From assembly GCA_031458695.1 (NCBI GenBank), contig JAVKJW010000008.1, positions 2,967 to 66,966 of the forward strand: a DNA stretch of 64,000 bases, in the 5' to 3' direction. Source of the DNA: Candidatus Thermofontivivens primus (lineage in GTDB: Bacteria; Sysuimicrobiota; Sysuimicrobiia; Sysuimicrobiales; Thermofontiviventaceae). Both the position numbers and the translations under genes were made by a program. The notes below the pieces were generated by a model that was not told the DNA's origin, did no database searches, and worked only from the letters and a program-made list of their open reading frames with translations. Positions 30,794 through 52,282 of the stretch are shown here, one piece after another. How positions within the stretch are numbered: the stretch's first letter is position 1; each line of letters begins with the position of its first letter.

Positions 30794-30929
30794 TTCTTCA
30801 CCAACGCCTCAGGGAAACCTGGGAAGCACCCTGCGTGCAGGAAGTCTTCCCTGCCACACAGAAGAACACGAGGGAACCTTGTTCCCTCAAGAACGGGAGC
30901 GTACACAGCACTCGCGCCATGAGGTGACC

Positions 30930-38477: not shown

Positions 38478-38738
38478 ATGCGGCGGCTAGCGGAGCTCAA
38501 ACCTGGAGAGAGGGGACGCATCCTGGAGGTTATCGCAATGGCAGAATCCCTCGCCGCCCTGGGGTTCATCCCGGGGGCCACAGTACGAGTCCGCCAACGG
38601 GTCCGCGGGGGTCCTCTCCTTGTGGATCTTGGTGAATCGATGTACGCCCTCGGTCGAGAGATAGCTGCCATGGTTGCGGTAGAACCAGAGATGGACTGTC
38701 TCGGTCCAAGAAGAGGAACCAGTCAGAGAGGGAGATGA
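38478..38738 (+). CDS. feoA: FeoA-family protein
   Basis: LAELKPGERGRILEVIAMAESLAALGFIPGATVRV matches the FeoA SH3-like pattern. It lies directly upstream of feoB with an ATGA overlap. Confidence 0.8.
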   Translation: MRRLAELKPGERGRILEVIAMAESLAALGFIPGATVRVRQRVRGGPLLVDLGESMYALGREIAAMVAVEPEMDCLGPRRGTSQRGR

Positions 38739-40744
38739 GGCATTCCTGTCACTCTCCCACCACAACGATCCCCTTTTTGAGGTCTGCCCAGGACCTTCCT
38801 GTTGTTGCTCTCGTGGGAAACCCGAACTCGGGGAAGTCCACACTTTTCAATGCGCTCACCGGGTCATGTGCCGAAACGGCGCACTATCCGGGAACCACAG
38901 TGGAGATCCTCACAGGTCTTGTCCCGCTCGGGGATCGACAGATCATGCTGGTAGACCTGCCTGGCTTGTATACCCTGCGGGGAGGAGGGGAGGAGCGGCA
39001 AGTCGTGCGCGAGGTGCTGCGTTCTGGTGTGGACGCAGTAGTTGCTGTGGTGGACGCGACGAACCTGGCGCGGCATCTCTACCTTGTTTTAGAACTGCGG
39101 TCCCTCGGTCTCCCCCTGGTCGTGGCCTTGAACATGATTGACCTCCTGACGTCGCAGGAAGGAAGGGTTGACGTCAAGGAGCTCGAGCGCCTCCTCGGAG
39201 TCCCTGTCATTCCTACCATTGCCACCACAGGGCAGGGAGTAGACAAGGTCGTCCAGAAGATCCTCTCCATCACTTCCAGCCCTCCTCCTGCAGTGGCCTT
39301 CCTGGGTCCGGAGCTAGATGATTCGATCGAGAAGTTGGGCGATGCTCTTGAGGGATATCCGCTCCCTCCAGGGCTTTCCCGTCTTTCTGTCGCACTGTTG
39401 CTCTTGGAAGGAGATCCAGAGGTCACCTCGTTCTTCTCCAGCCGCCCGGGAATGGAGGGCATACTCCAGCAGGTCGTGGAGACGCAGGAGCGCCTAGAGG
39501 AAACCTTAGGGATGCCCTTGGCCGTTGCAATAGCTGCAGCCCGCCACAGGGTCGCCGATCACATTGCGAAGCAGGTGGTGAAACCTGGCGTTCGTCGGGA
39601 GAGCTGGCTATGGTCCTTGGCGATCTCTCCCCGCGCGGGCGTCTTCTTCCTCCTGGGTGTCCTGGCGATCTTGTTCACCGTCTTGTTCTGGGGTGGAAAC
39701 TTCCTTTCTACGCTTCTCAGCGCAGGCTGGGCAATGGCTGTCTCCCCGTTCCTCCAAACGGCTGCGCGGGCGATGTTCGGTGAAGGAGTGATCGGCAGGA
39801 CGGTCCTGTGGGGAGTCGACGCGGGCCTTCTTGCAGCTCTTTCGGTAGGGATTCCCTATGTCCTCACTTTTTACATCCTCCTGGCGTTCCTGGAGGATAC
39901 CGGATTCCTCAACGCCATGGCTTTCCTTGCGGACCGACTCATGAGGAGTTTCGGTCTCCATGGTCGGGCCATCATTCCTCTCGTGGCCGGGGCAGGGTGC
40001 AACGTGCCCGCCATCATTGGCACGCGCGTGCTGCCGACCATGCGAGAGCGGACCATCGCCTCCACCCTGATCACCCTTGTTCCGTGCAGCGCGAGAACGG
40101 CTGTGATCTTGGGCGCCGTTGCCCTCTCCCTGGGTATCCTCCCTGCACTTGCGCTCTACCTCCTCGTCCTAGGGGTGATCGTCCTCGTAGGGTGGGGTCT
40201 TGGGAAGGTATTGCCTGGACAAGCCTCGCCTCTCGTCATGGAGGTGTTCCCTTTTCGTAGGCCGGTGGTCAGGGTCTTGTGGAGAAAGACATGGGCTCGG
40301 TTCAGGGAATTCCTCATCGTGGCCCTCCCCTTGGTGATGGTGGGGAGTATTGTCCTGGGTGGTCTGTACGAGAGTGGTCTCATCTGGAAGCTGAGCAGGC
40401 CTCTCGCTCCCGTCGTAGAAGGCTGGCTAGGGCTCCCTGCGGTGGCTGGGTTGACCCTCGTCTTTGCCGTGCTCCGCAAGGAGCTGGCACTCCAGCTCCT
40501 CGTAGCCCTGGCCATCGTGCGCTACGGGCCAGGAGCGGAGAGCCTCCGGGCTTTTTTGAATGGGCGCCAGATTTTTGTCTATGCCCTCGTGAACACCCTG
40601 TACATCCCGTGCATCGCCACGATTGCAGTTCTTGCAAGAGAGCTGGGGTGGAGACGCGCCCTCCTGATCTCCACCTTTACCGTGGCCCTGGCGGTGGCTA
40701 TCGGGGGCGTCGCCAATAGGCTGATCCTGTGGTGGGGAGCTTAG
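38735..40744 (+). CDS. feoB: ferrous iron transporter FeoB
   Basis: N-terminal GTPase GNPNSGKSTLFNALTG plus a ~450-aa polytopic membrane domain. Confidence 0.9.
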   Translation: MRHSCHSPTTTIPFLRSAQDLPVVALVGNPNSGKSTLFNALTGSCAETAHYPGTTVEILTGLVPLGDRQIMLVDLPGLYTLRGGGEERQVVREVLRSGVDAVVAVVDATNLARHLYLVLELRSLGLPLVVALNMIDLLTSQEGRVDVKELERLLGVPVIPTIATTGQGVDKVVQKILSITSSPPPAVAFLGPELDDSIEKLGDALEGYPLPPGLSRLSVALLLLEGDPEVTSFFSSRPGMEGILQQVVETQERLEETLGMPLAVAIAAARHRVADHIAKQVVKPGVRRESWLWSLAISPRAGVFFLLGVLAILFTVLFWGGNFLSTLLSAGWAMAVSPFLQTAARAMFGEGVIGRTVLWGVDAGLLAALSVGIPYVLTFYILLAFLEDTGFLNAMAFLADRLMRSFGLHGRAIIPLVAGAGCNVPAIIGTRVLPTMRERTIASTLITLVPCSARTAVILGAVALSLGILPALALYLLVLGVIVLVGWGLGKVLPGQASPLVMEVFPFRRPVVRVLWRKTWARFREFLIVALPLVMVGSIVLGGLYESGLIWKLSRPLAPVVEGWLGLPAVAGLTLVFAVLRKELALQLLVALAIVRYGPGAESLRAFLNGRQIFVYALVNTLYIPCIATIAVLARELGWRRALLISTFTVALAVAIGGVANRLILWWGA

Positions 40745-40972: not shown

Positions 40973-41362
40973 CTACGACGTCCTCGGTTGCAGGGGGCAT
41001 AGGGTTCCTCGCCAGAGCTTCTTCCCCCGTGCCCACTCCATCCACGCCTCATCTCCGAGCTCTGCCCTCTTCGCCGCAGACTCGATGCGAAGGCGTGGAG
41101 GTTGGTCGTGGGCCGCGAAGGAGATGAGCAGTTCGCAGGGGAATTCGGGACAGACCCCGCAGTGCGCTACCCCACGCTCCTTAGCGCACTGGTAAATGGG
41201 GCAGATGTTCCGGAACTCCACCATCTCCTGGAGGGTACACGCGGGGACGTATTCCTCATACCAGGGATCGCCTTCTGCGAAGACACCACAGACTCCAGCG
41301 AAGCGAAGCTCCCCTAGCTCCGCCTGTGCTTTTTCGATGAGCTCTCGCGATGAGGCCATCGC
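40973..41362 (-). CDS. DUF3795-like Cys-rich protein
   Basis: ICPIYQCAKERGVAHCGVCPEFPCELL. Start chosen at MASSREL (ATG 41362). Confidence 0.55.
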   Translation of the reverse strand, partial: AMASSRELIEKAQAELGELRFAGVCGVFAEGDPWYEEYVPACTLQEMVEFRNICPIYQCAKERGVAHCGVCPEFPCELLISFAAHDQPPRLRIESAAKRAELGDEAWMEWARGKKLWRGTLCPLQPRTS

Positions 41363-41575
41363 CTTTTTCCTCCTCCCCTGGTGCCGTTTCCACTTCCACC
41401 ATAGTCCAATTGGATCACTTCTGGTATCCGGCGAAGAGAGTATTTCCCCTGCCCTCCCTACGGTATATCTTTGTTCCCACCGAACTCGCCCCATCAAGAA
41501 CCTTCTTGAATGGAGGAAAGCCCCTCCGCGCGAGAGAAATGAACCCCAAACGCTTTATCTCAGGCGGTGGTGAGG

Positions 41576-42706
41576 ATGGCACGGACTGCAGATGCCGTAA
41601 TCGTCGGAGGAGGAGTCATCGGATGTGTATGTGCCTACCATCTGGTGTGCGCAGGTGTGAGGCGGGTAGTGGTCCTGGAGCGGGGAGAGGTCGGTGGGGA
41701 GGCGAGCGGTGCCTCAGCTGGGATGCTTGTCCCCCAGAGCGAGGCGAGCGGTCCCGGTCCATTTCTAGACCTGGGCCTCTTCAGCAGGAGTCTCTTCCCC
41801 AGGCTCCGGGACGAGCTGCGCGAGCGGGCGGGAGTGGACATCGAATACCTCCCCTGGGGGACCCTCCTCATCTTCGAGGAAGGAGAGGAGGAGGCTGCTC
41901 TGGGCCGTCAGTCCTGGCAGAAGTCCCTAGGCCTTCGTGCGGAAGTCCTTCCACGGGAGGAGGTATTGCGGCTTGAGCCCGCTCTTCGGGGGGACATCGG
42001 CGGTGCCCTCTTCCTTCCTGACGACCACCACCTCAACAATGTCGAACTCGTACGGGCCCTGGCGACGGCTGCTCGATCCCTGGGGGCGACGATCCTTGAA
42101 CACACCCCTGCCCTGGAGCTCCTTGTGGAAGGGGATCGGGTCATCGGAGTGAGGACCCCGGAGGATTCCTTCCTCTGTGGGACTGTCATCCTCGCCAATG
42201 GGTGCTGGACTCCTGAATTGACACGCCCCTTGGGGCGGCCGCTTCCTGTCCAGCCCGCCCGCGGCCAGATCGTCTACACTGAACTGCCGCACTTTCTGCT
42301 CCATCATGTGGTTTGGGGGAAGGGTGGGTACCTCGTCCCCAGGCTCAACGGGGGGATCCTCGCCGGAAGCACGGTGGAATTCGTAGGCATGGATAAGAGA
42401 GTCACCTTGGAGGCGGTCAGCCAGCTCAGCGCCATGGCTTTTGAGACGATCCCTGCTTTGCGGAGCGCCCCCTTGATCAGAGCGTGGGCTGGGCTCCGTC
42501 CACATTCCCCTGACGATTTGCCTCTGATTGGTCCTCTCCCTGGTGTAGAGGGTCTTGTGGTAGCGACGGGCCACTTCCGCAACGGGATCCTGTTTGCCCC
42601 CCTCACGGGGATCCTAGTGAAAGAGATGGTTCTTGGTGAACCGCCGTCGGTCGACCCCTCCCCGTTGAGTCCAGGCCGCTTCTTCCACTCCAGCAAAATC
42701 TCCTGA
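41576..42706 (+). CDS. thiO: FAD-dependent glycine oxidase (ThiO-like) / DAO-family oxidoreductase
   Basis: AVIVGGGVIGCVCAYHL dinucleotide-binding motif and C-terminal GHFRNGILFAPLTG, typical of ThiO. Confidence 0.65.
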   Translation: MARTADAVIVGGGVIGCVCAYHLVCAGVRRVVVLERGEVGGEASGASAGMLVPQSEASGPGPFLDLGLFSRSLFPRLRDELRERAGVDIEYLPWGTLLIFEEGEEEAALGRQSWQKSLGLRAEVLPREEVLRLEPALRGDIGGALFLPDDHHLNNVELVRALATAARSLGATILEHTPALELLVEGDRVIGVRTPEDSFLCGTVILANGCWTPELTRPLGRPLPVQPARGQIVYTELPHFLLHHVVWGKGGYLVPRLNGGILAGSTVEFVGMDKRVTLEAVSQLSAMAFETIPALRSAPLIRAWAGLRPHSPDDLPLIGPLPGVEGLVVATGHFRNGILFAPLTGILVKEMVLGEPPSVDPSPLSPGRFFHSSKIS

Positions 42707-42749: not shown

Positions 42750-45700
42750 TTACCTGACTTTCACGAGCTTCACTCGTGTATCGTAGAAGACCGCGCTGCC
42801 ACCGGTGAGGTCTACGAGGCAGGTATTCTTGAGATACGGGTCTATCCGCATGGCGGCGTTTGCATGCACGCCTGTACGCCGCCTAGGATCGCCTTTGATC
42901 ACCTTTCCGTCCACTACGATGTCTGTGGACCCATAAGCCCAGTGCCCATTTCCGAGGGAGAAGGAAATGACTCCAGGTCGCATTCCTTCCACGACTTTCA
43001 CTTTGCCAACCATTGGGACCTGTTTCCCGTTCCCCACAGGCCAGACGCCCTCCGGGTTACTCGCAGAGGTGATGCGCACAAGGTCTCCTTCCGAAAGACC
43101 CAGCTTCTCTGCGTCCCGTTTGTTCATCACCACAAAGTTCTCCGGGTAGATCGAGAGGAGCCAGTAGTCTGCAATGGTCCGGCTTTTGGTGTGGAAGATC
43201 TCCCGGTGGGTGATGAGGTTCAGGGTGTATCCTGCAGCCTCGTCGGGGATCGGCCGGCCGAGGGAATCTGTGATGGGGACGTACGTGGCGATACCCAGGA
43301 AGGGTTTCCCAGCCATAGAGTTCTTGGTCTCCGCAGCTTTTTCAGAGTACAGGTTGATCAGGGTCCCATACTTGTGCCGTACCTTTTCCCCTTCGTAACC
43401 TTGCTCGTAGTCTTCAAACCGGCCGCCCCGGTTGAGGACGTAGATCACCTTGGGCCACCAGCGATCCCCCACGATGCGCCGCCAGCGGTTCGGGTCGAAG
43501 ACGCTCTTTGGAAGATGGGACCGCGCGCGGAGGAAGAGATCGACCTCCGCGGCATCGGCGTCTGGAACTTCCTCTCCAGGCGCGTCCCCGGCCGCTACAT
43601 TGGCTACCATGCGGAGGTAGAGATCTTCCGGGCGGCGGAAATCCAGCCCGGGTCCGAAGGCATCCTTCCCAAATCCTGGAAGCCCCATCTTCTCTGCAAT
43701 CCCGAGGATCAGCGCCTCTAGGGAGAGGGGGATCTCCTCTCCGAACACCCTCACCGTCCTGGGGATCGGCGCTACAACAGGCGAAAAGATAGGCTGGACC
43801 TTCTGGGCTACAGACGGGTGGGACCCCATGAACTCCCACCGTTCCAGGTAGGTCAGGTCCGGGAAGATGTAGTCGGCATACATGGACGTCTCGCCCACGG
43901 TGATGTCACAAGCCACAACCAGCGGGATCTTTGCAGGATCCCGGAGGATCTCAATGTTGGTGTGGCCTGCGGGCAGGCTGTAAACCGGGGAACCCATATA
44001 GAGGAATAACGCCTTGATGGGGTAAGGATACCCGTCGCCAGCGGAGGGGATGATCTCCTGATAGATGTCACTGGCGAGAGGATACCAGGGCCGCTTGGCC
44101 GGGTATCCGCTGAAGAGCGTGGACTCCTCGTACTTGACTTCGTGGCGGATGATACTGATCCCGAAGGGCTTCATCTTCCCCGCCATCGCGCTGAGGTCAA
44201 AGGGCTTGGGCGGCCTTCCCCCGACGATGTCGTAGGTCGTCGCCTTGATCATCCCGCCCTTCCAGTCGAAGTTCCCCACCAGCAGGTTGAGGGACATCCA
44301 GGCGAGGACGTTGTAGAAGCCGTTGGTATGCTGGGAGACACCACGGTGGATGTCAACGGCTGCCTGCTTTCCGTAGCTCGTGAACTCCCATGCCAGCTCC
44401 ACGATGTCCTGTTCCTTGATCCCGCACAGCTTGGCCCAGGCCGCCAGCGTGCGGGTCTTGCTGGACTCATACAGGACCTGGAGGCCGCTCTTCACTCGAA
44501 TCCCGCCGATCACAGTGTCCACGAGGAGATCCCCTTCCACCGGGGTCTTCTCGTCGTACGGGTCGAAGGCTACAGGCTTGCCATCGCGGAGGACGACGAA
44601 CTCGTCTTTCTCGGATAACCCAATCTCTTTCGCCCGCAGGAACCTTCCTGGCCGGCCATCAGGGCCAATCTTGATGAGCCAGGTTGCATTGGTCCAGGTA
44701 GGTTCTCCGTCGGCTTTCGCCGCACCCTTATTGGCGTTCTGGAGGTAGCGGGCGTCGTAGCGCTTGTTCTCAATGATCCAGCGGATCATCCCGAGGGCGA
44801 GAGCTGCCTCGGTCCCCGGCTTGATAGGGACCCACTTCCAGGCCTTAGCCGCGGTCTTGGAGAGCCTGGGATCTACGACGGCGATCTTGAGGCGCCCATG
44901 TACGATGCCGTCGGTGATCTTGCTGGAACGAAGAGGCGGGCCGTAGTTTCCCTCGAATGGGGATGCACCCACAAAGATGATGAACCGGGCGTTTGCCGTG
45001 TCTGCCTGCCAGTAGAACTTCCGCCCTCCCGTCCACTTCCCCCCAATGTACTGCTCGCTCATGGCTTTGCAGGTGAAGTAGAGGGAGCCCTGGCAGACCG
45101 TGGTATGGCCGTGGGCGTTTACCGACCCAAGCGCGTCTCCGGTGAAGCGCTTGATGAGATCGCCGCGCCCACCCTTCAGGCGACCCCACATGAACACAAA
45201 CTGGTTGTTCTTCGGCCCGAGGTCGGGGTGGTCGGGGTCGATAAGGAGGTGGAGGTGCTCCCGGTGCTTGGCCTTGAACTCCGCCACGGTCATCTCTTTC
45301 TTCTTGATCTTCTCTACATCAGCGGCCAGAGCAGCGGCAAGCTTTGGATCCCGCAGGGCCCAGATCTCCTTTAACCCTTGTACGTAGCGGTTCTCCTCTC
45401 CTGGGACATCCTTGAACAAGTAGCCACCATTGACGATCTCCTCAATCGCTTGTTCGAACGAAATGGTTCGCCACCGGTTGGATCCCCGTGGCCCGGCCCG
45501 CTTGAGGACGGCCCGGAGGCGGTAGGGGTCGTACAAGGTTTGGATTCCAGCCTGTCCCTTCGGGCAGATCGCCCCATCGATGCGGGCGGTGTCAAAGGGG
45601 GAGGCTGTATAGGGGAGATGGGGGGTCATCGTCCAAGGGCTCTGCGGGTTTCCGTCGATCTTGACGACCACACCCTGGAGGAGCTTCACTTTAATCCCAC

Positions 45701-45929
45701 ACCCTGTGTTGCACTGGAGGCAGACAGTGCGCAAGATGTTTTCCGGACGAGAGAGCTCATAGAGGGCACTCCCCTCTCCCGCCTCGGCCTGGTGGAGGAG
45801 TTCAAACGCCCTGTCGATGCGGCGTAGGAGGAGGGCTGAACCTCCCAGGAAGGCCGTGGTCTTGAGGAATTCCCGCCGGGTCATGGGGAGGTCCATCTTT
45901 GGAGATTCCTTCAATGTGCTCCTTAGCAT
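42750..45929 (-). CDS. Tat-exported molybdopterin oxidoreductase catalytic subunit (tetrathionate/polysulfide reductase TtrA/PsrA-like, ~1059 aa)
   Basis: Twin-arginine signal [15 protein letters not shown] and N-terminal [14 protein letters not shown] [4Fe-4S] motif, with large MopB and molybdopterin-binding domains. ATG 45929 follows GGATAGGAGGGGGAAG. Confidence 0.85.
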
Positions 45930-45939
45930 CTTCCCCCTC

Positions 45940-46836
45940 CTATCCATGGCAGACCTGGCAGTTCTTCTTGACGTCTTCAGCGATGTAGTAAACCCTTGGC
46001 CGGGTCCCCAGGTTCGCGTTCACCTGCATATGGGGATTCCGGCGGAGGAGATCGGCGACGAGGCTCCTCTTGTCGGAGATGTCCCCAAAGTACATGGCCC
46101 GGCCAATGCAGGTGGTCACGCAGGCCGGAAGCATCCCGACCTCCAGACGTTGCAGGCAGAAGTGGCACTTCCGACCGGCGCCAATGGGGAGTTGCCCCTC
46201 CATCCGCGTCCATCGCTGGCCGTACTCCACATGCGGTCGAGTCTCATATGCCTGGAGCCTCGGCGTTCCCTGAGTCCAGTATTTCCCATCATCGAAGTAG
46301 AGCGCTGTGTAAGGACAGGCCTTCGCCGCGGCCTCGAAGGCCTTGCGGGTGCGGAACTTGGTGTAGTCAACGACCACGATGCCATCTGGCCGTTTAGAGA
46401 TCGCCCCGGGAGGGGCTGCCTTCATACAGGGTGGATTGTCGCACTGCTGGCAGTTTGTAGGCATGAATACCCGCCTGACTGCGGGATATTCCCCGACTTC
46501 TACCTCTGGAACGGTGCGGTAGGAGACTCCAGGGGGGAGCCTGTTTTCTGCGATACAGGCCACCACACAGGCGTTGCACCCGATGCACTTGCGAGTGTCA
46601 ATGACCATCACCCACTGGCGCTGTTCCACAGGCTTGCGCAACGCCCTCTCCAGGTCCTGCTGCATGCGCAGGACTTCATTGTCGGTAGAGAACCGTTCTT
46701 CCGCACTTGCCCGCCGTTCCGTGGTGACCCCCTTCAGGACAGTTCCCACTTCCGCTGCGACGACCGTGGCCGCAGCAGAGATCACGCCCCTCAGCAACTT
46801 GCGTCGCGTCGCCTTCCCTTTGCAAGGTTGGCTCAT
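45940..46836 (-). CDS. Tat-exported 4Fe-4S ferredoxin-type subunit (TtrB/PsrB-like)
   Basis: [11 protein letters not shown] Tat motif and multiple CxxCxxCxxxCP clusters. ATG 46836 is preferred (AGGAGG-5nt-ATG) over GTG 46842. Confidence 0.85.
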
Positions 46837-46858
46837 AGCCACCTCCTGGACTTGCGGA

Positions 46859-47950
46859 TTACTTCTTCCGCTTCCCTAGGCTGTGGATCCCCTTCGCATA
46901 CTGCGCAGCCCACTTCACCGTCTTGTCCTGGTGGCACTGCAAGCATGCGAAGTCCAGGGTCACGTAGTGCTTGGCAAAGGCTCCGTCAGGGGTGAACATC
47001 TTCGCCTCAGGGTCGGTCTTAATCAGGAAGAGGTGGGTCTTTACATCGCCCTTGTATGGACCCAGGCTTACTGCCGATTTCGTGGCCATAGGCATGTGGC
47101 AATCCACACACCTGACCCCGACGCGTTGCATTGTGCTACCAGCGAAGGCGGCCTGAGCAGCAGAATGGCAGGATGCACAGGTGGTGCGGATAGAGAACTC
47201 TGCCTTCTTGTGGGGGTCGTGACAGTCCACGCACGCAAGCTTGCGATGCGGGCTGGCGAGGTGTTCATTGAACTGCTCGTGGTGCTGGATAAACCCACCT
47301 ACAGCGGGAATGGTTGTCGCTTTGCCCCGGATATGGCAGTTGCCGCAGAACCAAGCGGAGCGATCCGTGGCGATCAGCTTCTTGTCTCCTCCTGCCGCGA
47401 TATGCGCCTGGCCGGGGCCATGGCAGGATTCGCACCCCACGCCAGGGAATACCCATGTGCCTACGATGCCGGGGAGGCCACCCTGGCTTCCCTCAGGCGA
47501 ATACCCCGTGGTGTGACACCGACCGCAGTCATATTTCTTGACCTTCCCGGCCTCGTAATCTGCCCAGGCTCCGGTCATCAGGTTATATTGGTTCTTTCCT
47601 GGTTTCCCGGCTGCGGTGGTGATGAAGAACCCTTTCTTGTCGAGGTAACGTGCCTTCCACTTGTATCCCCCCACGACGTAACTGATGTCGTCCCAGGAGT
47701 ACCCGGCAGGCAAGGGGAGAGGCATATTCTTCGCCTGCTCAGCGGGGATCAGGATATAGGGATGACCGGAGACCTTCCAATCGTTGAACTCCCCAGGGTG
47801 GCACTTGAAGCACGCTTCCGACCCTGCATACGGAGATGTTGCTACTTGCCCGGAGGCGGTGCGGAAGGAGAAAACAGAGGGTGCAAACATGACGCTGACC
47901 AGGAAGATCAGCACTCCTACGATGAGGAGAATCCCACGCGCCCTTCTCAT
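46859..47950 (-). CDS. membrane-anchored octaheme c-type cytochrome
   Basis: Eight CxxCH motifs (CFKCH, CGRCH, CESCH, CGNCH, CVDCH, CASCH, CVDCH, CLQCH) and an N-terminal TM anchor ILLIVGVLIFLVSVMF. Confidence 0.85.
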   Translation of the reverse strand: MRRARGILLIVGVLIFLVSVMFAPSVFSFRTASGQVATSPYAGSEACFKCHPGEFNDWKVSGHPYILIPAEQAKNMPLPLPAGYSWDDISYVVGGYKWKARYLDKKGFFITTAAGKPGKNQYNLMTGAWADYEAGKVKKYDCGRCHTTGYSPEGSQGGLPGIVGTWVFPGVGCESCHGPGQAHIAAGGDKKLIATDRSAWFCGNCHIRGKATTIPAVGGFIQHHEQFNEHLASPHRKLACVDCHDPHKKAEFSIRTTCASCHSAAQAAFAGSTMQRVGVRCVDCHMPMATKSAVSLGPYKGDVKTHLFLIKTDPEAKMFTPDGAFAKHYVTLDFACLQCHQDKTVKWAAQYAKGIHSLGKRKK

Positions 47951-48369
47951 CGAGCTCACCTCACGCGCTGGAGGTTTTTCCTTCAACCCTCGTATCTCCA
48001 ATTCCACCCCTTCTTAGCTTATCGGTGAACCTGGAGCATGAGAATCGAACTAGAACTTGATTCTCCATGTGGTGGTCCACAATTTTGCCTCCTACTCAAA
48101 TCCGATGACCAATGTGGTCTTGATGCATGCGTATCGCACAGCGAAGGAAATAGATCTTCGATCTCATCGCGACCACTGGTGGGTAGAAGACAACCTCCCT
48201 CGCCGATCGATGAGGAGGATCCCTTGCCACAATCTGGCGCGATCTGTTCGCAGATCTCATTCATGATCCTTGTGCTGCTAAGCCGGCCTTGTTTCCTTGC
48301 CGAACGAAGGAGCTCTTTGAGGCTGCTAGGACCGATGGAGGGAGGTCCACGTGATTCCAAGGGGAGCGC

Positions 48370-49557
48370 TCATCCTCGGGAGCGCGGGCTGAACACGATA
48401 TTCAGTTTCCCGTCCTCCAACCGCGCGTCCCTGGCATCCAGGCCTGCCAGGGTAAGAGGCAGGAAGATGTTCCGTTTGAATGTTCCCACGCGCACAATGA
48501 GCTCGTGTCCTGTCTGAAGGAGTTCGACTTCGCCCTTCTCCACAAAGGGGAGGGAGAGGGTGAGGATATACCTGTTCCCTTGTTTGGTCACCTTCTGAGG
48601 GGTCCCTTTGTAGTATAACCGGGTGGGGTCATCATCGCCGAAGAGGTGCTCGGCCACCTGGCGAAGCATCTTCACCCCAACAACCTCGTGGGGGAATAAA
48701 GGCACGTGGAGGATGGGAAGGGGGGTGAAGGCCTCCTCAATCATCTGGGCGTACTTCCTTTGGGTTTCGGACCACTGCCCAAAGAGCCCATCCATAGTTC
48801 CCTCTGGGAGTACTTTGTTCACGATAATGGCATCCGTACCATATCCGAACAGGTTAAAGTATGTGTAGGCCCTCTGAGATTCCTTAATGACCATCTTCTC
48901 TAAATTCAGGACAAGGCGGATAGAGGTCGTGGAGGTATCCGCCAGAATCTCCTTCATCTCCTCCACAGCGTGCAGGAGGTTTTGGGCAGCGACAAAGACG
49001 TCATCTGTCGGCAGGGGAAGGCGAATGAGCGGTTGTACCACCGGACGCACCACTCGAGTCGCGGCACGTCCAATTGGGAAGAGCTTCTCCAGCCACCACC
49101 GTGCCATATCCGGGAAACCGAGGAGTTGTATGGTTTCTCCCGTAGGGGCGCAGTCGACGACGATGACATCGTAGTTCCCTTCCCGTGCGAGATGGCTCAA
49201 CTGGAGAAGACTGCTGATTTCCTCCATGCCCGGGAGGTTGGCCAGCTCTTCGCTCGTGATCTCATCGACGCCCTGCGATGCCAGGAGTGTGGAGAGGTAC
49301 GCCTTGAGGACGCCCCAGTACTTCTCCAGCTGGTACAGGGAGTCGACCTCTTGCGCCCACAGGTTCTCGCCCACCTTCACGACCTCGTTGCCAATGGGAG
49401 ATTCCAGGGAATCACCCAGGCTGTGCGCTGTGTCGGTGCTCATGACGAGGGTCCGGTAGCCGAGGTCGGCACACCGGATCGCGGTGGCCGCAGCGACGGT
49501 GGTCTTCCCTACTCCACCCTTCCCAGTGTAGAGGATGACGCGCTTGACCATCCCCAT
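48370..49557 (-). CDS. ArsA/Get3-family single-domain anion-transporting-type ATPase
   Basis: YTGKGGVGKTTVAAATA P-loop plus the DTAHSLGDSL motif of the ArsA family. ~395 aa. Confidence 0.8.
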   Translation of the reverse strand: MGMVKRVILYTGKGGVGKTTVAAATAIRCADLGYRTLVMSTDTAHSLGDSLESPIGNEVVKVGENLWAQEVDSLYQLEKYWGVLKAYLSTLLASQGVDEITSEELANLPGMEEISSLLQLSHLAREGNYDVIVVDCAPTGETIQLLGFPDMARWWLEKLFPIGRAATRVVRPVVQPLIRLPLPTDDVFVAAQNLLHAVEEMKEILADTSTTSIRLVLNLEKMVIKESQRAYTYFNLFGYGTDAIIVNKVLPEGTMDGLFGQWSETQRKYAQMIEEAFTPLPILHVPLFPHEVVGVKMLRQVAEHLFGDDDPTRLYYKGTPQKVTKQGNRYILTLSLPFVEKGEVELLQTGHELIVRVGTFKRNIFLPLTLAGLDARDARLEDGKLNIVFSPRSRG

Positions 49558-49572
49558 GCGTGAGGAGGAACC

Positions 49573-49815
49573 TTACTTGACCACGACGCGTTTTGGCCTC
49601 TTGGACTCGGGCTTTGGTTGGGTCCGGGCGATGGCCACGTCGATCATCGCCCGCATTGCCTCGAGGAACTCCCGCAGGGCGTTCGTGAGATGGTGCTGGA
49701 CCTCCGCGGGAATAGCACCTTCCAGTGCATTCCAGAACCGTTCCTCCAGTTCTGCCGCGACCCTCATGGGCCGCACTCTCCCGCGCCGGGGTTGCGGCAT
49801 CTTCCTCACCTCCAT
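49573..49815 (-). CDS. hypothetical 80-aa protein downstream of the ArsA-like gene
   Basis: MEVRKMPQPRRGRVRPMRVAAELEERFWNALEG... No SD-like sequence upstream. Low confidence. Confidence 0.3.
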   Translation of the reverse strand: MEVRKMPQPRRGRVRPMRVAAELEERFWNALEGAIPAEVQHHLTNALREFLEAMRAMIDVAIARTQPKPESKRPKRVVVK

Positions 49816-49888: not shown

Positions 49889-51559
49889 TTAGGATCTCGT
49901 GTAGAGACGCCGGAGGGCGCATGCTGCAGTGAACTCCGCGAGGGCTCCAAACAACCCTTCCGCCTGCGCTTCCTTCTCCTCCGGCGGTAAGGCCAGGTGC
50001 GATCTGACCCGTTCATCCATTTCCTGGAGGGCTTCTCGATCTGCGTACGGGGCGAGGTGCAAGAACAGCTGGTGGTGGGCTTCCCGGCGTTCCATGACCT
50101 CAAGGCCATCCAAAATCTGCCTGTGCGGGGTTCCTTCCCATATGGGGAGGATCATAGCCTCCCGGAGCAGTCGCTCTACAGAATACTCGGCTAACACGCC
50201 AGCACCACCATGGACTTCCATCGTCCATTTGGCTGTCTGGACTGCTACCTCTGCTGTCCAGTATTTCGCCAGGTGTGCGACGAGGCGGAAGAGGTGGTAC
50301 CGGCCAGAGTATCTTGGGGTCTCCAGCCAAACTTCGTCGAGGAGCTGCACAGCTTCCCAGGCAAGGGCGAATGCGAGCTGGAGGGTCCTCACACGCTCCT
50401 CAAACTGCTGGTGAAGCAGGGGGTGGTCAAGGATGCGCTTGCCGAAGGCGACACGTCCTTCCGAGAAGGCAAGTGCTTCCTGGATTGCCCGCTGGGCCAG
50501 AGCGACGCTTCCTATACTGTTGGCGACGCGGGAGATGTTAAGGACCTCCAGAATGAGGTAGATCCCCCATTCGGGTTTGCCAAGGAGATAGGCTACACTG
50601 TCGAGAAGCTCTACCTCCCCGGTAGGAACAGAGCGTGTGCCGATTTTATCCTTCAGGCGGCGGATGAAGTAGTTGAGCCGCCCATCCTCCAGCCTCCTTG
50701 GGAGGAGGAAGAGCGCCAGGCCGCGAACTCCGGGCGGTGCCCCCTCTGGCCTGGCTGCCACCACCGCAACATCCGCTCCCACATTGCTGGCGAAGTACTT
50801 CTCTCCCCTCAGGAGCCAGTAGTCTCCCTGGGGTCGGGCCACTGTCTCCACGCTAGCTCCAAGGTCCGAACCTCCCTTTACCTCTGTCATCCAGGTTGCA
50901 CCCTGCCAAGCGTTGCCATCCCTGCGGAGCAGAGGTGGGAGGTACTTTGTCTTCACCGCCTCGCTTCCATACTTCCAAAGGGGGACACCCGTTGAGAGGG
51001 TGACGGTATAAGGACAGTAGACCCCTGGGTCATAAAAAGAGGTGACGTACCCAAAGAGATAAAAAGGGAGGAGGGTCCTTTCCTCAAAGACCCGCCAGAC
51101 CGCCCCTGCCTTATAGCCCGTCTGAAGCATCTCCCAGTACTCTGGAGGGTACTGGATCTCATCCACACGATTGCCAAAACGGTCGAACATTCGGAGCCAA
51201 GGAGTACCTAAGCGATCAATAAAAGAGGAAATCGCTTTCCCCCTCTCCTCCCACCATCGTTCGTACTCTTCCAGTTGGGCGCGGAGGGCAAAGTCTCTGA
51301 AGGTTTCCTGGAGGAAGCGCGTGGGTGACCGGACAAAATTCCAGCTCACGTTGGACCCTCCTGGTTCCGATTCAGTTTCTAAGGGGAAGTATTCTCCTTG
51401 TCTTGAGGTGGACCTTTCGGAGGACAGGGATGGAGCTCCAACGAAATCTTTTGACAGATGGTGTGTGATGCGGGCTGTCTGGCGAATATGCAATTCGTGG
51501 CTCGCTCGTTCATGCGCTTGCCTGAGAGAGGAATCGGGTACAAGCCCGATAGCGTCCAA
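49889..51559 (-). CDS. acyl-CoA dehydrogenase family protein (AidB-like, ~556 aa)
   Basis: ACAD middle and C-terminal domains (EVKGGSDLGASVETVARPQGDYWLLRGEKYFASN). TTG start as drawn, so the true start is uncertain. Confidence 0.7.
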   Translation of the reverse strand: MDAIGLVPDSSLRQAHERASHELHIRQTARITHHLSKDFVGAPSLSSERSTSRQGEYFPLETESEPGGSNVSWNFVRSPTRFLQETFRDFALRAQLEEYERWWEERGKAISSFIDRLGTPWLRMFDRFGNRVDEIQYPPEYWEMLQTGYKAGAVWRVFEERTLLPFYLFGYVTSFYDPGVYCPYTVTLSTGVPLWKYGSEAVKTKYLPPLLRRDGNAWQGATWMTEVKGGSDLGASVETVARPQGDYWLLRGEKYFASNVGADVAVVAARPEGAPPGVRGLALFLLPRRLEDGRLNYFIRRLKDKIGTRSVPTGEVELLDSVAYLLGKPEWGIYLILEVLNISRVANSIGSVALAQRAIQEALAFSEGRVAFGKRILDHPLLHQQFEERVRTLQLAFALAWEAVQLLDEVWLETPRYSGRYHLFRLVAHLAKYWTAEVAVQTAKWTMEVHGGAGVLAEYSVERLLREAMILPIWEGTPHRQILDGLEVMERREAHHQLFLHLAPYADREALQEMDERVRSHLALPPEEKEAQAEGLFGALAEFTAACALRRLYTRS

Positions 51560-51696: not shown

Positions 51697-52269
51697 GTGA
51701 TTGAGATCCGAATCCATGGCCGCGGAGGCCAGGGAGCGGTGGTCGCTTCGAAAATCCTCGCTGATGCGGCCTTTCGTGAAGGGCACTCCGTCCAGACTTT
51801 TCCCCAGTTTGGCGTAGAACGACGCGGTGCGCCGGTTGCTGCTTTCGTCCGCATTGCCGATCCCGACGAGCCCCTCTGGATTCGCTGCCACGTCACCACA
51901 CCCCATATCGTTATCGTCCTCGATGCTACCCTGTTGGAAACTGCCGGGATCCTAGAAGGTTTGCGCGATGGAGGGATCGTCCTGGTGAACTCCCCGCAGC
52001 CTCCAGATGCCCTGGCGATCCCATCCAAGTACCAGGTGGCTACTGTGGATGCTTCGGCGATTGCACTCAAACACAAGCTTGGCACGCGGACCCAACCCAT
52101 TGTGAACACCGCGATCTTAGGTGCGTTCGTGAAGGTGACGCGGTTGGTCCGGTTGGAGTCCGTGCTGGAGGCAATCCGCGAAAACGTCCCCGTAGACCCC
52201 GAAGGGAACGTCCGTGCTGCGGAGGAGGCATTCGCAACTGTCCTGTCAAGCGCACGCGCAGCGGCATGA
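51697..52269 (+). CDS. 2-oxoacid:ferredoxin oxidoreductase gamma subunit (PorG-like)
   Basis: MIEIRIHGRGGQGAVVASKILADAAFREGHSVQTFPQFG. GTG start after GAGAAGGGGGTGGTGG. Confidence 0.85.
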   Translation: MIEIRIHGRGGQGAVVASKILADAAFREGHSVQTFPQFGVERRGAPVAAFVRIADPDEPLWIRCHVTTPHIVIVLDATLLETAGILEGLRDGGIVLVNSPQPPDALAIPSKYQVATVDASAIALKHKLGTRTQPIVNTAILGAFVKVTRLVRLESVLEAIRENVPVDPEGNVRAAEEAFATVLSSARAAA

Positions 52270-52282
52270 GGAGGGATCTCCC

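What the first reader, a model, noticed from the sequence alone, without database searches (positions are those of the whole stretch)
42750..47950. Tat-dependent Ttr/Psr-like molybdoenzyme and FeS subunit partnered with a membrane-anchored octaheme cytochrome c instead of a PsrC/NrfD-type quinol subunit
The operon order is octaheme cyt c (8 CxxCH, N-terminal TM anchor), Tat FeS protein, then Tat catalytic subunit (~1059 aa, CLQCNTGCG cluster). No integral-membrane NrfD/PsrC gene is present. This implies electron delivery via the multiheme cytochrome (NapC/NrfH-like logic). The substrate (tetrathionate, polysulfide, arsenate, selenate, ...) cannot be inferred from sequence alone. The nearby candidate selenoprotein makes a Se or chalcogen link worth testing.
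Basis: partly seen in the sequence, partly recalled or inferred. Interest (0 to 1): 0.55.

Follow-up and report, generated by a model that had tools for sequence, protein, structure and literature searches.

The report
Anchorless Ttr-like molybdoenzyme with octaheme partner
A hot-spring bacterium (an Armatimonadota genome assembled from a metagenome) has a three-gene operon for a periplasmic molybdenum enzyme, probably acting on arsenic, that lacks the usual membrane anchor, has lost one iron-sulfur cluster, and carries a conserved heme-binding motif that would let it trade electrons with cytochromes.

Summary
Three tightly packed minus-strand genes encode an octaheme cytochrome c (8 CxxCH), a Tat-signal FeS protein and a Tat-signal Mo-bisPGD catalytic subunit. 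No NrfD/PsrC gene occurs anywhere in the 64-kb window.

The interpretation needs refining in four ways.
1. The catalytic subunit belongs to a very large, cross-phylum clade of TtrA homologues (58-81% identical). Many relatives have the classical FeS-NrfD-Mo order.
2. The window belongs to an NrfD-less subtype. Its FeS subunit has lost exactly the four Cys ligands of FS4, the cluster next to the membrane subunit. The subunit ends in a conserved CxxCH motif, present in 21 of 25 FS4-less loci and 0 of 49 FS4-retaining loci. The His is invariant even where both Cys are lost. I infer a C-terminal c-heme that replaces FS4 as the port to cytochromes.
3. The octaheme has an OcwA/MccA-like fold, not a NapC/NrfH one. 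Its relatives are mostly stand-alone secreted proteins, and the "membrane anchor" may be a signal peptide.
4. A Gly-Arg motif aligns with ArrA R165. Homologous loci carry ars genes and ArrTSR-like regulators. Both point to arsenate/arsenite rather than tetrathionate.

Verdict: a new variant of a known kind. All evidence is computational.

The parts
46859..47950 (-). Octaheme cytochrome c gene (363 aa; alternative GTG start at 48007). It belongs to a large family of ~350-aa octahemes with an OcwA/MccA-like fold.
   Evidence: Eight CxxCH motifs at verified coordinates. Pfam multiheme hits. More than 3000 homologues with all eight motifs invariant. AF2 pLDDT 85; Foldseek OcwA 6i5b E 8e-13, MccA 4rkm E 3e-11.
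47879..47950 (-). N-terminal signal peptide or signal anchor of the cytochrome (MRRARGILLIVGVLIFLVSVMFAP).
   Evidence: Sequence. Predicted helix at residues 3-21, followed by a low-confidence linker. Homologues have short signal peptides or lipoboxes. Cleavage was not determined.
45940..46836 (-). TtrB-like FeS subunit gene (298 aa), of the FS4-less subtype.
   Evidence: Fer4_11. The best NCBIfam hit is TtrB at 133 bits, below the cutoff. Foldseek best hits are ArrB 6cz7_B and PsrB 2vpw_B. 2112 homologues.
46789..46806 (-). Twin-arginine (Tat) motif of the FeS subunit (RRKLLR).
   Evidence: Translation. An RRxF consensus is seen in the A2 alignment. 64 of 68 full-length homologues with a C-terminal CxxCH have RRx## in their first 60 aa.
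46309..46452 (-). Cys groups II/III of the FeS subunit: [17 protein letters not shown]...[17 protein letters not shown]. Cys4 of group II and Cys1-3 of group III are replaced, so all four ligands of one cluster (FS4) are missing.
   Evidence: Alignment to PsrB 2vpw_B. Alignment of 23 FS4-less and 48 FS4-retaining subunits.
45946..45960 (-). Extreme C-terminal CQVCH motif of the FeS subunit, followed only by Gly and the stop codon. It is a putative covalent c-heme attachment site.
   Evidence: Coordinates. 92 of the 120 closest homologue clusters carry a CxxCH within the last few residues (86 by the stricter test, 92 by that). The His is invariant in A2 even where both Cys are lost. The association with FS4 loss is perfect.
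42750..45929 (-). Mo/W-bisPGD catalytic subunit gene (1059 aa), a TtrA homologue.
   Evidence: Pfam domains. NCBIfam TtrA 487 bits (cutoff 1750), PhsA 183, ArrA 132. More than 3300 homologues at 58-81% identity across phyla.
45861..45884 (-). Tat motif of the catalytic subunit (MTRREFLK).
   Evidence: Translation. R24 and R25 are invariant in A1.
45696..45722 (-). FS0 [4Fe-4S] motif CLQCNTGCG.
   Evidence: Translation. Molybdop_Fe4S4 domain. The Cys residues are invariant in A1.
45180..45185 (-). Gly-Arg pair (in [11 protein letters not shown]) that aligns with the (R/K)GRY motif of ArrA, i.e. R165 of Shewanella ArrA.
   Evidence: phmmer alignment to 6cz7_A. Invariant in A1. PMC12949373 reports that GR is conserved in all arsenic-metabolising enzymes and absent from bona fide TtrA.
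45093..45095 (-). Predicted Mo-ligand cysteine (HTTVCQGS).
   Evidence: Aligns with ArrA HSSVCAE. Invariant in A1.
47951..48369 (-). About 420 bp of non-coding DNA upstream of the operon; presumed promoter region.
   Evidence: Only a low-complexity 113-aa ORF with no support lies here. No sigma-70 consensus was found.

Best explanation
The operon encodes a soluble, periplasmic, quinone-independent member of the Ttr-like branch of the Mo/W-bisPGD (DMSO reductase) family.

The catalytic subunit (Tat-exported, with an FS0 cluster, a Cys-ligated Mo and a Gly-Arg oxyanion-binding motif) most probably reduces arsenate to arsenite, or runs the reverse reaction.

Its FeS partner keeps clusters FS1-FS3 but has lost all four ligands of FS4. 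In PsrB-, NarH- and DmsB-type subunits, FS4 is the cluster that faces the NrfD/quinol subunit. In its place the subunit carries a conserved C-terminal CxxCH 'heme tag'. I infer that the cytochrome c maturation system loads this tag with one covalent heme after Tat export, and that the heme is the electron port to c-type cytochromes.

The co-transcribed octaheme cytochrome (OcwA/MccA fold; secreted or N-terminally tethered) is the immediate partner in this organism. It would connect the enzyme to an unidentified quinol:cytochrome c oxidoreductase or to another redox chain.

Shown: the gene anatomy, the family placement, the FS4-ligand loss, the motif conservation and its association with the absence of NrfD, and the fold of the cytochrome.

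Inferred: heme attachment, the electron path, its direction, and the substrate.
For: Operon and motifs.

No NrfD in the window.

A survey of 80 species-representative loci plus look-ups shows three architectures:
- FeS(16 Cys)-NrfD-Mo.
- FS4-less FeS directly next to Mo: 25 loci, none with NrfD, 21 ending in CxxCH.
- Triheme cytochrome-FeS-Mo.

FS4 ligand loss was mapped by alignment to PsrB and across the two FeS types.

The C-terminal His is invariant. A subgroup has lost both Cys together (AAYH, AGFH, STSVH) but keeps the His. This is the pattern expected for a heme axial ligand, not for an FeS ligand.

System I attaches heme to 12-aa CXXCH peptides and to C-terminal heme tags (PMC3601427 and PMC6962350).

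Multiheme cytochrome genes lie within 3 kb in 16 of 36 NrfD-less loci against 2 of 37 NrfD-type loci (Fisher p = 1e-4, uncorrected for phylogeny).

A second FS4-less locus (L064) holds a homologue of the octaheme in a decaheme-containing cluster.

Substrate:
- The GR motif aligns to ArrA R165 (PMC12949373).
- ArrT/HK/RR-like genes lie upstream in at least 16 homologous loci, and Acr3/ArsC lie beside at least 7.
- ArsP, ArsR and phosphate-porin genes are frequent neighbours.
- The literature describes Ttr-like arsenate reductases (PMC11462812, PMC5492636, PMC13608581).
Against: - No experimental data exist.
- Heme attachment to a Tat-exported, already folded FeS protein has no precedent that I know of or could find.
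- No residue specific to the FS4-less type that could serve as the sixth heme ligand was found in the FeS subunit.
- The window itself has no ars genes.
- The closest FeS/Mo relatives lack an adjacent cytochrome, so the octaheme pairing may be recent or facultative.
- In the NJ tree of catalytic subunits the FS4-less type falls into three groups. This means either poor resolution or repeated subunit swapping.
- The best-scoring curated model is still TtrA.
Confidence: 0.55

Rival explanations
1. First reader's model. The octaheme cytochrome is a membrane-anchored quinol dehydrogenase of the NapC/NrfH/CymA type. It oxidises menaquinol and feeds the FeS subunit directly, taking over the role of NrfD.
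For: An N-terminal hydrophobic helix of about 17-22 residues. A weak NrfH-like hit in the C-terminal third (TIGR03153, 37 bits against a cutoff of 134). Precedent: ArrAB with CymA in Shewanella (from my own knowledge).
Against: No PF03264 hit for the window protein. The fold matches OcwA, MccA and OmhA. The NrfH-like stretch is far from the N-terminal helix in the sequence. Homologues have cleavable-looking signal peptides or lipoboxes and are stand-alone genes in Kosmotoga and in the closest relative. Sister Armatimonadota loci use a separate cytochrome b as the membrane module.
Confidence: 0.15
2. The enzyme works in the oxidative direction. It would be an arsenite (Arx-like) or thiosulfate dehydrogenase that delivers electrons through the FeS/heme subunit and the octaheme cytochrome to a terminal oxidase or another acceptor.
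For: A cytochrome c partner without a quinol module fits a donor-side enzyme. Arr/Arx and Tsd enzymes are bidirectional (PMC12949373; PMC5146829 abstract). Armatimonadota from hot springs include aerobes (my own knowledge). Two homologous loci sit next to MtrB/PioB-type porin-cytochrome genes, which are used in both directions.
Against: Relatives with NrfD and ArrTSR-like regulators look like respiratory reductases. Published Ttr-like enzymes are described as arsenate reductases (PMC11462812, PMC5492636). The sequence contains nothing that fixes the direction.
Confidence: 0.25
3. It is a genuine tetrathionate reductase (or selenate or other chalcogen reductase) that simply uses a cytochrome partner.
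For: The best curated models are TtrA and TtrB. The TtrA/SrdA/alternative-Arr clade is catalytically versatile (PMC10100899). Some sources annotate homologues as tetrathionate reductase subunit A.
Against: The score is far below the TtrA equivalog cutoff (487 against 1750). The GR motif, reported absent from bona fide TtrA, is present and invariant. Arsenic-related neighbours recur in homologous loci.
Confidence: 0.2
4. It is a classical quinol-dependent enzyme whose NrfD/TtrC subunit is encoded elsewhere in the genome.
For: Only 64 kb of a metagenome-assembled genome were examined. Published genome papers have assumed a missing ttrC in similar cases (PMC8528874).
Against: The FeS subunit lacks FS4, the cluster that faces the NrfD subunit. 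The absence of NrfD is a trait of the whole subfamily: 25 of 25 FS4-less loci, many on long contigs.
Confidence: 0.05
5. The C-terminal CxxCH is not a heme site. It could be a metal-binding or redox-disulfide tail, an assembly or docking element, or the axial ligand for a heme of the partner cytochrome.
For: No known precedent for c-heme on a Tat substrate. No type-specific sixth ligand was found. The linker before the motif varies in length. Variants lacking both Cys still keep the His, which could also fit a docking or ligand-donating role.
Against: The motif is the canonical c-heme signature. It is periplasmic and terminal, like engineered heme tags. It appears exactly where an electron-transfer cofactor was lost. 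Two Cys and one His cannot rebuild a cubane cluster, and the other 12 Cys are already used by FS1-FS3.
Confidence: 0.3
6. The octaheme cytochrome is itself the terminal catalyst, like the related MccA or OTR enzymes or the multifunctional OcwA. The molybdoenzyme would then be its electron donor or an unrelated co-transcribed function.
For: The fold resembles MccA and OcwA, whose heme 2 is an open-coordination active site. Distant octaheme homologues sit next to FeS+NrfD modules, as in MccACD.
Against: At 363 aa it is a minimal scaffold. Seven conserved His and three conserved Met outside the heme motifs could make all eight hemes six-coordinate. No CxxCK motif and no MccA-type CX15CH motif is present.
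Confidence: 0.1

Closest known systems
Salmonella-type tetrathionate reductase TtrBCA
   Same: Mo-bisPGD catalytic subunit of about 1020-1060 aa with FS0 and a Cys ligand. Tat signals on both A and B. The best curated HMM hits are TtrA and TtrB. Relatives at 65% identity keep the B-C-A gene order.
   Different: No TtrC/NrfD. The FeS subunit has three rather than four clusters. A C-terminal CxxCH is present. The GR motif is present. Scores are far below the equivalog cutoffs. A cytochrome c gene lies in the operon.
Ttr-like respiratory arsenate reductases (Anaeromyxobacter sp. PSR-1, Geobacter sp. OR-1, Pyrobaculum, Melioribacter, Limisphaera)
   Same: TtrA homologues distinct from true Ttr and true Arr. 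They carry the GR motif and have arsenic-related neighbours and regulators (PMC12949373, PMC11462812, PMC5492636, PMC13608581).
   Different: The described examples are drawn as ABC complexes with a membrane subunit. No octaheme partner and no FS4-less or CxxCH-bearing FeS subunit is reported in the papers I could read. Co-clustering with the PSR-1 sequence was not tested.
Shewanella ArrAB with CymA
   Same: A soluble periplasmic AB heterodimer without a C subunit that takes electrons from a multiheme cytochrome. ArrB is the best structural match of the FeS subunit. The GR and Cys motifs align.
   Different: The ArrB chain in the PDB is a 234-aa ferredoxin-type protein with no terminal CxxCH in the aligned region. 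CymA is a NapC/NrfH tetraheme encoded elsewhere. ArrA is only a distant relative (132 bits).
Shewanella DmsEFAB (extracellular DMSO/iodate reductase)
   Same: A molybdoenzyme AB pair without its membrane subunit, wired through a decaheme cytochrome and a porin (PMC11302344, PMC9732548). Homologous loci L012 and L047 carry MtrA-like decahemes and MtrB/PioB porins next to the Ttr-like AB genes.
   Different: The window has no porin or decaheme gene. The catalytic clade differs (DmsA uses a Ser ligand).
Polysulfide reductase PsrABC (Thermus thermophilus, 2vpw-2vpz)
   Same: It is the structural reference for the A and B subunits.
   Different: PsrB has all 16 Cys and docks on PsrC, which carries the menaquinol site. 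The window FeS subunit lacks the FS4 ligands.
OcwA (Thermincola), MccA (Wolinella) and OmhA (Carboxydothermus) multiheme cytochromes
   Same: They are the best sequence and fold matches of the octaheme. All belong to the NrfA/c554/octaheme superfamily.
   Different: The window protein is much smaller (363 aa against 480-680). No evidence for an open-coordination catalytic heme. It is not a cell-surface protein of a Gram-positive organism.
NapC/NrfH/CymA quinol dehydrogenases
   Same: An N-terminal hydrophobic helix followed by a multiheme domain. They serve as electron donors to periplasmic reductases.
   Different: No significant family match. Eight hemes rather than four. A different fold. 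The helix may be a cleaved signal peptide.

Membership tests
Mo/W-bisPGD (DMSO reductase family) catalytic subunit with FS0 | Molybdop_Fe4S4, Molybdopterin and Molydop_binding domains, with a CxxCxxxC...C FS0 motif | tested here: met
   All three Pfam domains score above the gathering score. CLQCNTGCG is invariant in the family alignment.
Mo/W-bisPGD (DMSO reductase family) catalytic subunit with FS0 | A protein ligand to Mo (Cys, Sec, Ser or Asp) at the conserved position | tested here: met
   The Cys in HTTVCQG aligns with ArrA HSSVCAE and is invariant. The ORF is uninterrupted, so the residue is not Sec.
Bona fide tetrathionate reductase TtrABC | ttrBCA gene order with a nine-helix, cofactor-less TtrC (PMC12949373) | tested here: not met
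   The gene order is cytochrome-B-A. No NrfD/TtrC homologue is found in the 64-kb window.
Bona fide tetrathionate reductase TtrABC | Tat leader on both TtrA and TtrB | tested here: met
   MTRREFLK and TRRKLLR.
Bona fide tetrathionate reductase TtrABC | Score above the curated NCBIfam equivalog cutoffs for TtrA and TtrB | tested here: not met
   TtrA 487 bits against 1750; TtrB 133 bits against 416.
Bona fide tetrathionate reductase TtrABC | TtrB carries four FeS clusters | tested here: not met
   Only 12 cluster Cys remain, and the four FS4 ligands are replaced.
Bona fide tetrathionate reductase TtrABC | Absence of the Gly-Arg pair in the substrate pocket (PMC12949373, Fig. 2B) | tested here: not met
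   GR is present and aligns to ArrA RGRY. I could not align a bona fide TtrA myself as a negative control.
Ttr-like respiratory arsenate reductases | Gly-Arg pair equivalent to ArrA R165 | tested here: met
   GR is also present in a Ttr-like enzyme inside an ars island on a Citrobacter arsenatis plasmid.
Ttr-like respiratory arsenate reductases | Arsenic-related genomic context (ars genes, ArrTSR-like regulators) | tested here: inconclusive
   Present in many homologous loci. Absent from the window, where only a Get3/ArsA-fold ATPase with an HSP20-like domain lies upstream.
Ttr-like respiratory arsenate reductases | Phylogenetic clustering with the PSR-1 (WP_059435911.1), OR-1 (WP_041969781.1) or PAE1265 sequences | not tested
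   The reference sequences were not retrievable with the tools, and Muramatsu et al. 2020 is not held.
Ttr-like respiratory arsenate reductases | Arsenate reductase activity, or induction by arsenate | not testable with these tools
   Needs biochemistry or transcriptomics.
NapC/NrfH/CymA quinol dehydrogenases | Tetraheme NapC/NirT domain (PF03264) directly after the TM helix | tested here: not met
   No PF03264 hit. The NrfH model scores 37 bits against a cutoff of 134, and only at residues 275-366. The fold is OcwA/MccA-like.
NrfA/c554/octaheme superfamily (OcwA, MccA, OmhA) | Similar fold and heme-motif arrangement | tested here: met
   phmmer E 2e-11 to 6qvm and 6i5b. Foldseek E 8e-13 to 3e-11, TM-score (query-normalised) 0.56-0.59.
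NrfA/c554/octaheme superfamily (OcwA, MccA, OmhA) | Open-coordination catalytic heme (heme 2 in OcwA and MccA) | tested here: inconclusive
   There are enough conserved His and Met for eight distal ligands, but the assignment cannot be made without a heme-containing structure.
c-type cytochrome (applied to the C-terminus of the FeS subunit) | CxxCH motif in a periplasmic polypeptide | tested here: met
   CQVCH at 45946..45960 on a Tat-signal protein. It is conserved in 92 of the 120 closest clusters, and the His is invariant.
c-type cytochrome (applied to the C-terminus of the FeS subunit) | Covalently bound heme | not testable with these tools
   Needs heme staining or mass spectrometry.

The most novel reading that the evidence does not exclude
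The FS4-less TtrB-like subunits form a natural FeS/heme-c hybrid. A Tat-exported three-cluster ferredoxin would receive a covalent heme on its extreme C-terminal 'heme tag' after export. This would define a widespread, cross-phylum class of quinone-independent molybdoenzymes, probably arsenate reductases/oxidases. They would plug directly into multiheme-cytochrome networks, including outer-membrane porin-cytochrome conduits, instead of into an NrfD quinol site.
Probability: 0.4. Interest if true: 0.75.

Novelty: new variant of a known kind. Interest (0 to 1): 0.58.

Why it matters
Genome papers repeatedly call Ttr-like AB pairs without TtrC puzzling, possibly non-functional, or an assembly artefact (PMC6896113, PMC8528874). 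Recently one was called 'a novel class' (PMC13490349).

This analysis offers a concrete structural reason. The FeS subunit has been re-engineered: FS4 is gone and a conserved C-terminal heme motif has appeared, so it can talk to cytochromes instead of to a quinol-binding subunit.

If this is confirmed, three things follow.
- It would be a new cofactor solution within the complex iron-sulfur molybdoenzymes.
- It would be an unusual case of c-heme attachment to a Tat substrate.
- It would give a simple sequence marker (one CxxCxxCxxxC motif plus a terminal CxxCH) for annotating thousands of metagenomic genes.

Because the clade is linked to arsenic respiration, which dominates arsenate-reductase transcripts in some soils (PMC11462812), it also bears on how arsenic mobilisation is wired into cytochrome-based and possibly extracellular electron transfer.

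Tried and rejected
- Metagenome scan with the octaheme alignment. No second cytochrome-FeS-Mo operon was found. The best hits were only 53% identical or less. Distant homologues sit beside FeS+NrfD modules instead.
- Contexts of the two closest octaheme homologues. Both are stand-alone genes, so the octaheme is not a dedicated subunit of the enzyme family.
- Search for a sixth heme ligand specific to the FS4-less type in the FeS subunit. None was found. The His of RKCHFC occurs in both types.
- The idea that the terminal CxxCH rebuilds an FeS cluster together with C174. Rejected: alignment to PsrB shows that C174 is the fourth Cys of group III, which serves FS2, and a subgroup loses both terminal Cys yet keeps the His.
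- NJ tree of catalytic subunits. Internal branches are short and the FS4-less type splits into three groups. I do not claim a single origin from it.
- Promoter and terminator scan: nothing above chance.
- Rfam and tRNA scans of the window: no hits, so no SECIS or Sec evidence.
- Literature searches for a heme motif on TtrB-like subunits: nothing found.
- Muramatsu et al. 2020 (PMC7657633) is not held, so its gene cluster could not be compared.
- tblastn against plasmids: only relatives at 35% identity or less. This was useful only for the Citrobacter ars-island example.

Full report
**Observation.** On the minus strand, three ORFs lie head to tail.
- 46859..47950 encodes a 363-aa protein with eight CxxCH motifs and one N-terminal hydrophobic helix.
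- 45940..46836 encodes a 298-aa 4Fe-4S protein with a twin-arginine motif (TRRKLLR).
- 42750..45929 encodes a 1059-aa protein with MTRREFLK, the FS0 motif CLQCNTGCG, and all three Pfam domains of Mo-bisPGD enzymes.

The junctions indicate one transcript. The cytochrome stop is followed by 22 nt with a strong Shine-Dalgarno sequence. The FeS stop codon lies inside the Shine-Dalgarno sequence of the Mo gene. About 420 bp of non-coding DNA lies upstream, and a convergent thiO gene lies downstream.

No NrfD/PsrC homologue exists anywhere in the window. The other polytopic membrane ORFs are ABC permeases, ThiW and FeoB. The sequence is an exact match to contig JAVKHR010000003.1 of an Armatimonadota metagenome-assembled genome (GCA_031432505.1). 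The look-up counted the same place on a second contig as similar.

**The catalytic subunit.** The best curated model is TtrA: 487 bits against a cutoff of 1750. PhsA scores 183 and ArrA 132. More than 3300 homologues exist, many 58-81% identical. They come from Armatimonadota, Methylomirabilota/Rokubacteria, Chloroflexota, Bacillota, Desulfobacterota, Bacteroidota/Ignavibacteria, Planctomycetota, Omnitrophota and even Nitrososphaeria. Conservation is very high; the mean column identity of 16 diverse members is 72%. The homologue in Thermanaeromonas sp. C210 (65% identical) sits in a classical FeS-NrfD-Mo operon behind a periplasmic phosphonate-binding-type protein, a histidine kinase and a response regulator. 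The enzyme is therefore not an orphan. It belongs to a large, conserved Ttr-like clade whose canonical members do have an NrfD partner.

**Architecture survey.** I fetched 80 species-representative loci, plus several metagenomic contexts. I classified the neighbours by phmmer, by CxxCH counts and by hydrophobicity. Three architectures recur.
1. FeS with 16 or more Cys, then NrfD, then Mo: 31 loci with a detected NrfD, plus 6-7 with an NrfD-sized gap between the FeS and Mo genes.
2. FeS directly abutting Mo with no NrfD, where the FeS protein has a single CxxCxxCxxxC motif: 25 loci, including the window.
3. A small one-TM triheme cytochrome, then FeS with 16-18 Cys, then Mo: about 7 loci.

Multiheme cytochrome genes lie within 3 kb in 16 of 36 NrfD-less loci but in only 2 of 37 NrfD-type loci (Fisher p = 1e-4, not corrected for phylogeny).

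The partners vary.
- The window's sister Armatimonadota loci have a 7-heme cytochrome plus a cytochrome b (Ni_hydr_CYTB) upstream.
- Two loci have MtrA-like decahemes and MtrB/PioB porins.
- The closest relative of the window's FeS and Mo genes has mobA and moeA-mobB upstream and no cytochrome gene. Its FeS subunit is 71% identical to the window's.
- Only the window has this octaheme directly upstream. One other locus (L064) has a homologue (266 bits) 3.7 kb downstream, in a cluster that also holds a decaheme.

**The FeS subunit is the constant, unusual feature.** Alignment to PsrB (2vpw_B) shows two replacements.
- Window [14 protein letters not shown] aligns with PsrB CENPPCVPVCPTGA, so the fourth Cys of group II is now Ala.
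- Window [17 protein letters not shown] aligns with PsrB KCIACGACIAACPY, so Cys 1-3 of group III are lost and Cys 4 is kept.

The same four replacements separate all 23 FS4-less subunits aligned from the 48 FS4-retaining ones.

In the two-ferredoxin-domain fold, these four residues ligate one single cluster. By the NarH, DmsB and PsrB convention this is FS4, the cluster nearest the membrane subunit and the quinol site. That assignment comes from my own knowledge of those structures. Groups I, II (Cys 1-3), III (Cys 4) and IV remain, so FS1-FS3 are intact.

At the same time the protein gains a short, variable linker after the conserved PRVYY(I/L) ending and terminates in CxxCH plus 0-2 residues (window: KKNCQVCHG, then stop).
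- Of the 120 closest homologue clusters, 92 have a CxxCH within the last few residues. The stricter test counts 86, and the looser one counts 92.
- In the locus survey the motif occurs in 21 of 25 FS4-less subunits and in 0 of 49 FS4-retaining ones.
- In a 48-sequence alignment the His is invariant. A subgroup has replaced both Cys together (…AAYHT, …AGFHA, …STSVHT) while keeping the His.

Concerted loss of the two thioether cysteines, with the axial His retained, is what one expects when a c-type site becomes a b-type site. It is not what one expects of FeS ligands. Two Cys and one His also could not rebuild a cubane. The protein carries a Tat motif, as do 64 of 68 full-length homologues with the motif, so the tail ends up in the periplasm. 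System I attaches heme to 12-residue CXXCH peptides and to flexible C-terminal 'heme tags' (PMC3601427 and PMC6962350).

I therefore infer that the tail carries one covalent heme that functionally replaces FS4. This is an inference.
- I found no precedent for c-heme on a Tat substrate.
- I found no type-specific sixth ligand.
- The AF2 tail is only moderately confident.

**The cytochrome.** The family has more than 3000 members of about 350 aa. All eight CxxCH motifs are invariant, and seven conserved His and three conserved Met lie outside the motifs. Sequence and fold searches place it with OcwA (6i5b), the S-layer undecaheme OmhA (6qvm) and the sulfite reductase MccA (4rkm). Foldseek E-values are 8e-13 to 3e-11 and query-normalised TM-scores are 0.46-0.59. 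It is not related to the NapC/NrfH family. There is no PF03264 hit, and only a 37-bit NrfH-like stretch in the C-terminal third. Homologues mostly have ordinary signal peptides or lipoboxes. The nearest ones, at 73% and 62% identity, are stand-alone genes. The window's hydrophobic stretch of about 17 residues, followed by APSVFS/F, may equally be a cleaved signal peptide. 'Membrane-anchored' and 'quinol-oxidising' are therefore unproven. Distant octaheme relatives sit next to FeS+NrfD modules, as in MccACD. OcwA and MccA use heme 2 catalytically (PMC6703420). A catalytic role for the octaheme therefore cannot be excluded, but nothing here supports it.

**Substrate.** Recent work distinguishes true Ttr from 'Ttr-like arsenate reductases' by a strictly conserved Gly-Arg pair. 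This pair, the Arg of which is R165 in ArrA, binds arsenate and is reported absent from bona fide TtrA (PMC12949373).
- In the window protein, [12 protein letters not shown] aligns with ArrA LLRGRYSHI-ND, and HTTVCQG aligns with HSSVCAE. The GR pair is invariant in the family.
- ArrT-like binding proteins with a kinase and a regulator, the 'ArrTSR' arrangement described for Melioribacter (PMC5492636), precede the operon in at least 16 homologous loci.
- Acr3 and LMW-ArsC genes flank at least 7 homologous loci.
- ArsP, ArsR and phosphate-selective porin genes recur next to FS4-less loci.
- A more distant Ttr-like B-C-A set (33% identical) lies inside an ars island on a Citrobacter arsenatis plasmid, and it also has GR.

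The window itself has no ars genes. The upstream ATPase has a Get3/ArsA fold plus an HSP20-like domain and is separated by about 420 bp. I rate arsenate/arsenite as the most likely substrate (about 0.5), ahead of tetrathionate or another chalcogen oxyanion. The direction of the reaction is open.

**Comparison and novelty.** Molybdoenzyme AB pairs that lack their membrane subunit and use cytochromes are known: ArrAB with CymA, DmsEFAB, and TorCA/DorCA. The general logic is therefore not new. TtrC-less Ttr homologues have been noticed, but they were treated as doubtful or as 'a novel class' without explanation (PMC6896113, PMC8528874, PMC13490349). As far as I could search, three things are new:
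- the specific remodelling of the FeS subunit (FS4 lost, terminal CxxCH/His gained);
- its perfect association with the absence of NrfD across phyla;
- the pairing with an OcwA/MccA-type octaheme in this organism.

I classify this as a new variant of a known kind.

**Limits.**
- Everything is computational.
- The phylogeny (NJ) is poorly resolved.
- Counts are not phylogenetically independent.
- Reference sequences of the characterised Ttr-like arsenate reductases could not be obtained.
- Only 64 kb of the genome were visible, so the upstream electron source (a quinol:cytochrome c module) and the cytochrome maturation genes remain unidentified.

Noticed in passing
Homologue proteins P0273, P0280, P0286, P0307 and others; locus L047: A subgroup of FS4-less FeS subunits has lost both Cys of the terminal CxxCH (…AAYHT, …AGFHA, …STSVHT; 12 Cys in total) but keeps the invariant His. 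This could be a b-type or non-covalent version of the same site. L047, of this type, sits beside 3-, 4- and 10-heme cytochromes and an MtrB/PioB porin.
   Followed up: partly
L051, L073, L075, L076, L078, L087 (upstream of the FeS gene): A third operon architecture in the same enzyme family: a small (~105-125 aa) one-TM triheme cytochrome c, then FeS (16-18 Cys, FS4 retained), then Mo, without NrfD.
   Followed up: partly
L012:6112-8475, L047:7030-9297, L047:6011-7015; L064:10657-15621: MtrB/PioB-type outer-membrane porins (E 9e-121 and 3e-99) and MtrA-like decahemes lie next to Ttr-like AB genes in an NC10 and a Deltaproteobacteria genome. In L064 the order is Mo, unknown, decaheme, 539-aa unknown (possibly a porin), then a homologue of the octaheme. 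The arrangement resembles DmsEFAB.
   Followed up: partly
L008:4234-5870 (also L027, L032): Sister Armatimonadota loci carry a 7-heme cytochrome c plus a cytochrome b (PF01292) directly upstream of the FS4-less FeS and Mo genes. This is a plausible quinol-oxidising module that the window operon lacks. A CODH/ACS and a hybrid-cluster protein lie nearby.
   Followed up: no
L172 (Citrobacter arsenatis plasmid NZ_CP037863.1, 28794-33598); similar hits on E. coli, Klebsiella and Salmonella plasmids: A Ttr-like FeS / 335-aa hypothetical / Mo set (33% identical to the window enzyme, GR motif present) lies divergent from arsR-arsD-arsA-arsB and near arsC on conjugative IncF plasmids. It is annotated only as 'DsrO' and 'molybdopterin-dependent oxidoreductase'.
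   Followed up: partly
window 48370-49557 (-), and the small ORF within about 49573-49800 (-): A Get3/ArsA-fold ATPase with a C-terminal HSP20-like domain (PF02374 plus PF17886; NosAFP-like, 150 bits, below the cutoff) lies immediately upstream of the operon, preceded by a 75-aa AF_1253-family gene. No link to the operon could be established.
   Followed up: partly
window 38478-40744 (+), 40973-41497 (-), 41567-42706 (+), 30606-31436 (+): Genes flanking the operon: feoA-feoB, a DUF3795 Cys-rich protein, glycine oxidase ThiO (294 bits, above the cutoff) and, further away, a ThiW thiamine-precursor transporter.
   Followed up: no
window about 32750-34459 (from L001:21471-23180): A family B DNA polymerase (PF00136) gene was called on this bacterial contig.
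   Followed up: no
window 51697-55900 (+) (L001:1-4233): A 2-oxoacid:ferredoxin oxidoreductase gene set (POR gamma, an Fer4_20/FAD-NAD oxidoreductase, POR_N/PFOR_II, TPP_enzyme_C) and an AidB-like acyl-CoA dehydrogenase (49889-51559, -) lie upstream of the ATPase.
   Followed up: no
L105, L114, L122, L137: Distant (23-34% identical) octaheme homologues in metagenomes are adjacent to FeS plus NrfD genes, an MccACD-like arrangement. This suggests that this cytochrome superfamily is often fed by NrfCD-type quinol modules.
   Followed up: no
whole window 1-64000: No tRNA genes and no Rfam family at the gathering threshold in 64 kb.
   Followed up: partly
L004 (Kosmotoga pacifica CP011232.1, 1391237-1392259): A cultured Thermotogota species encodes a 62%-identical stand-alone copy of the octaheme cytochrome. 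It offers a tractable source for characterising this uncharacterised cytochrome family.
   Followed up: no
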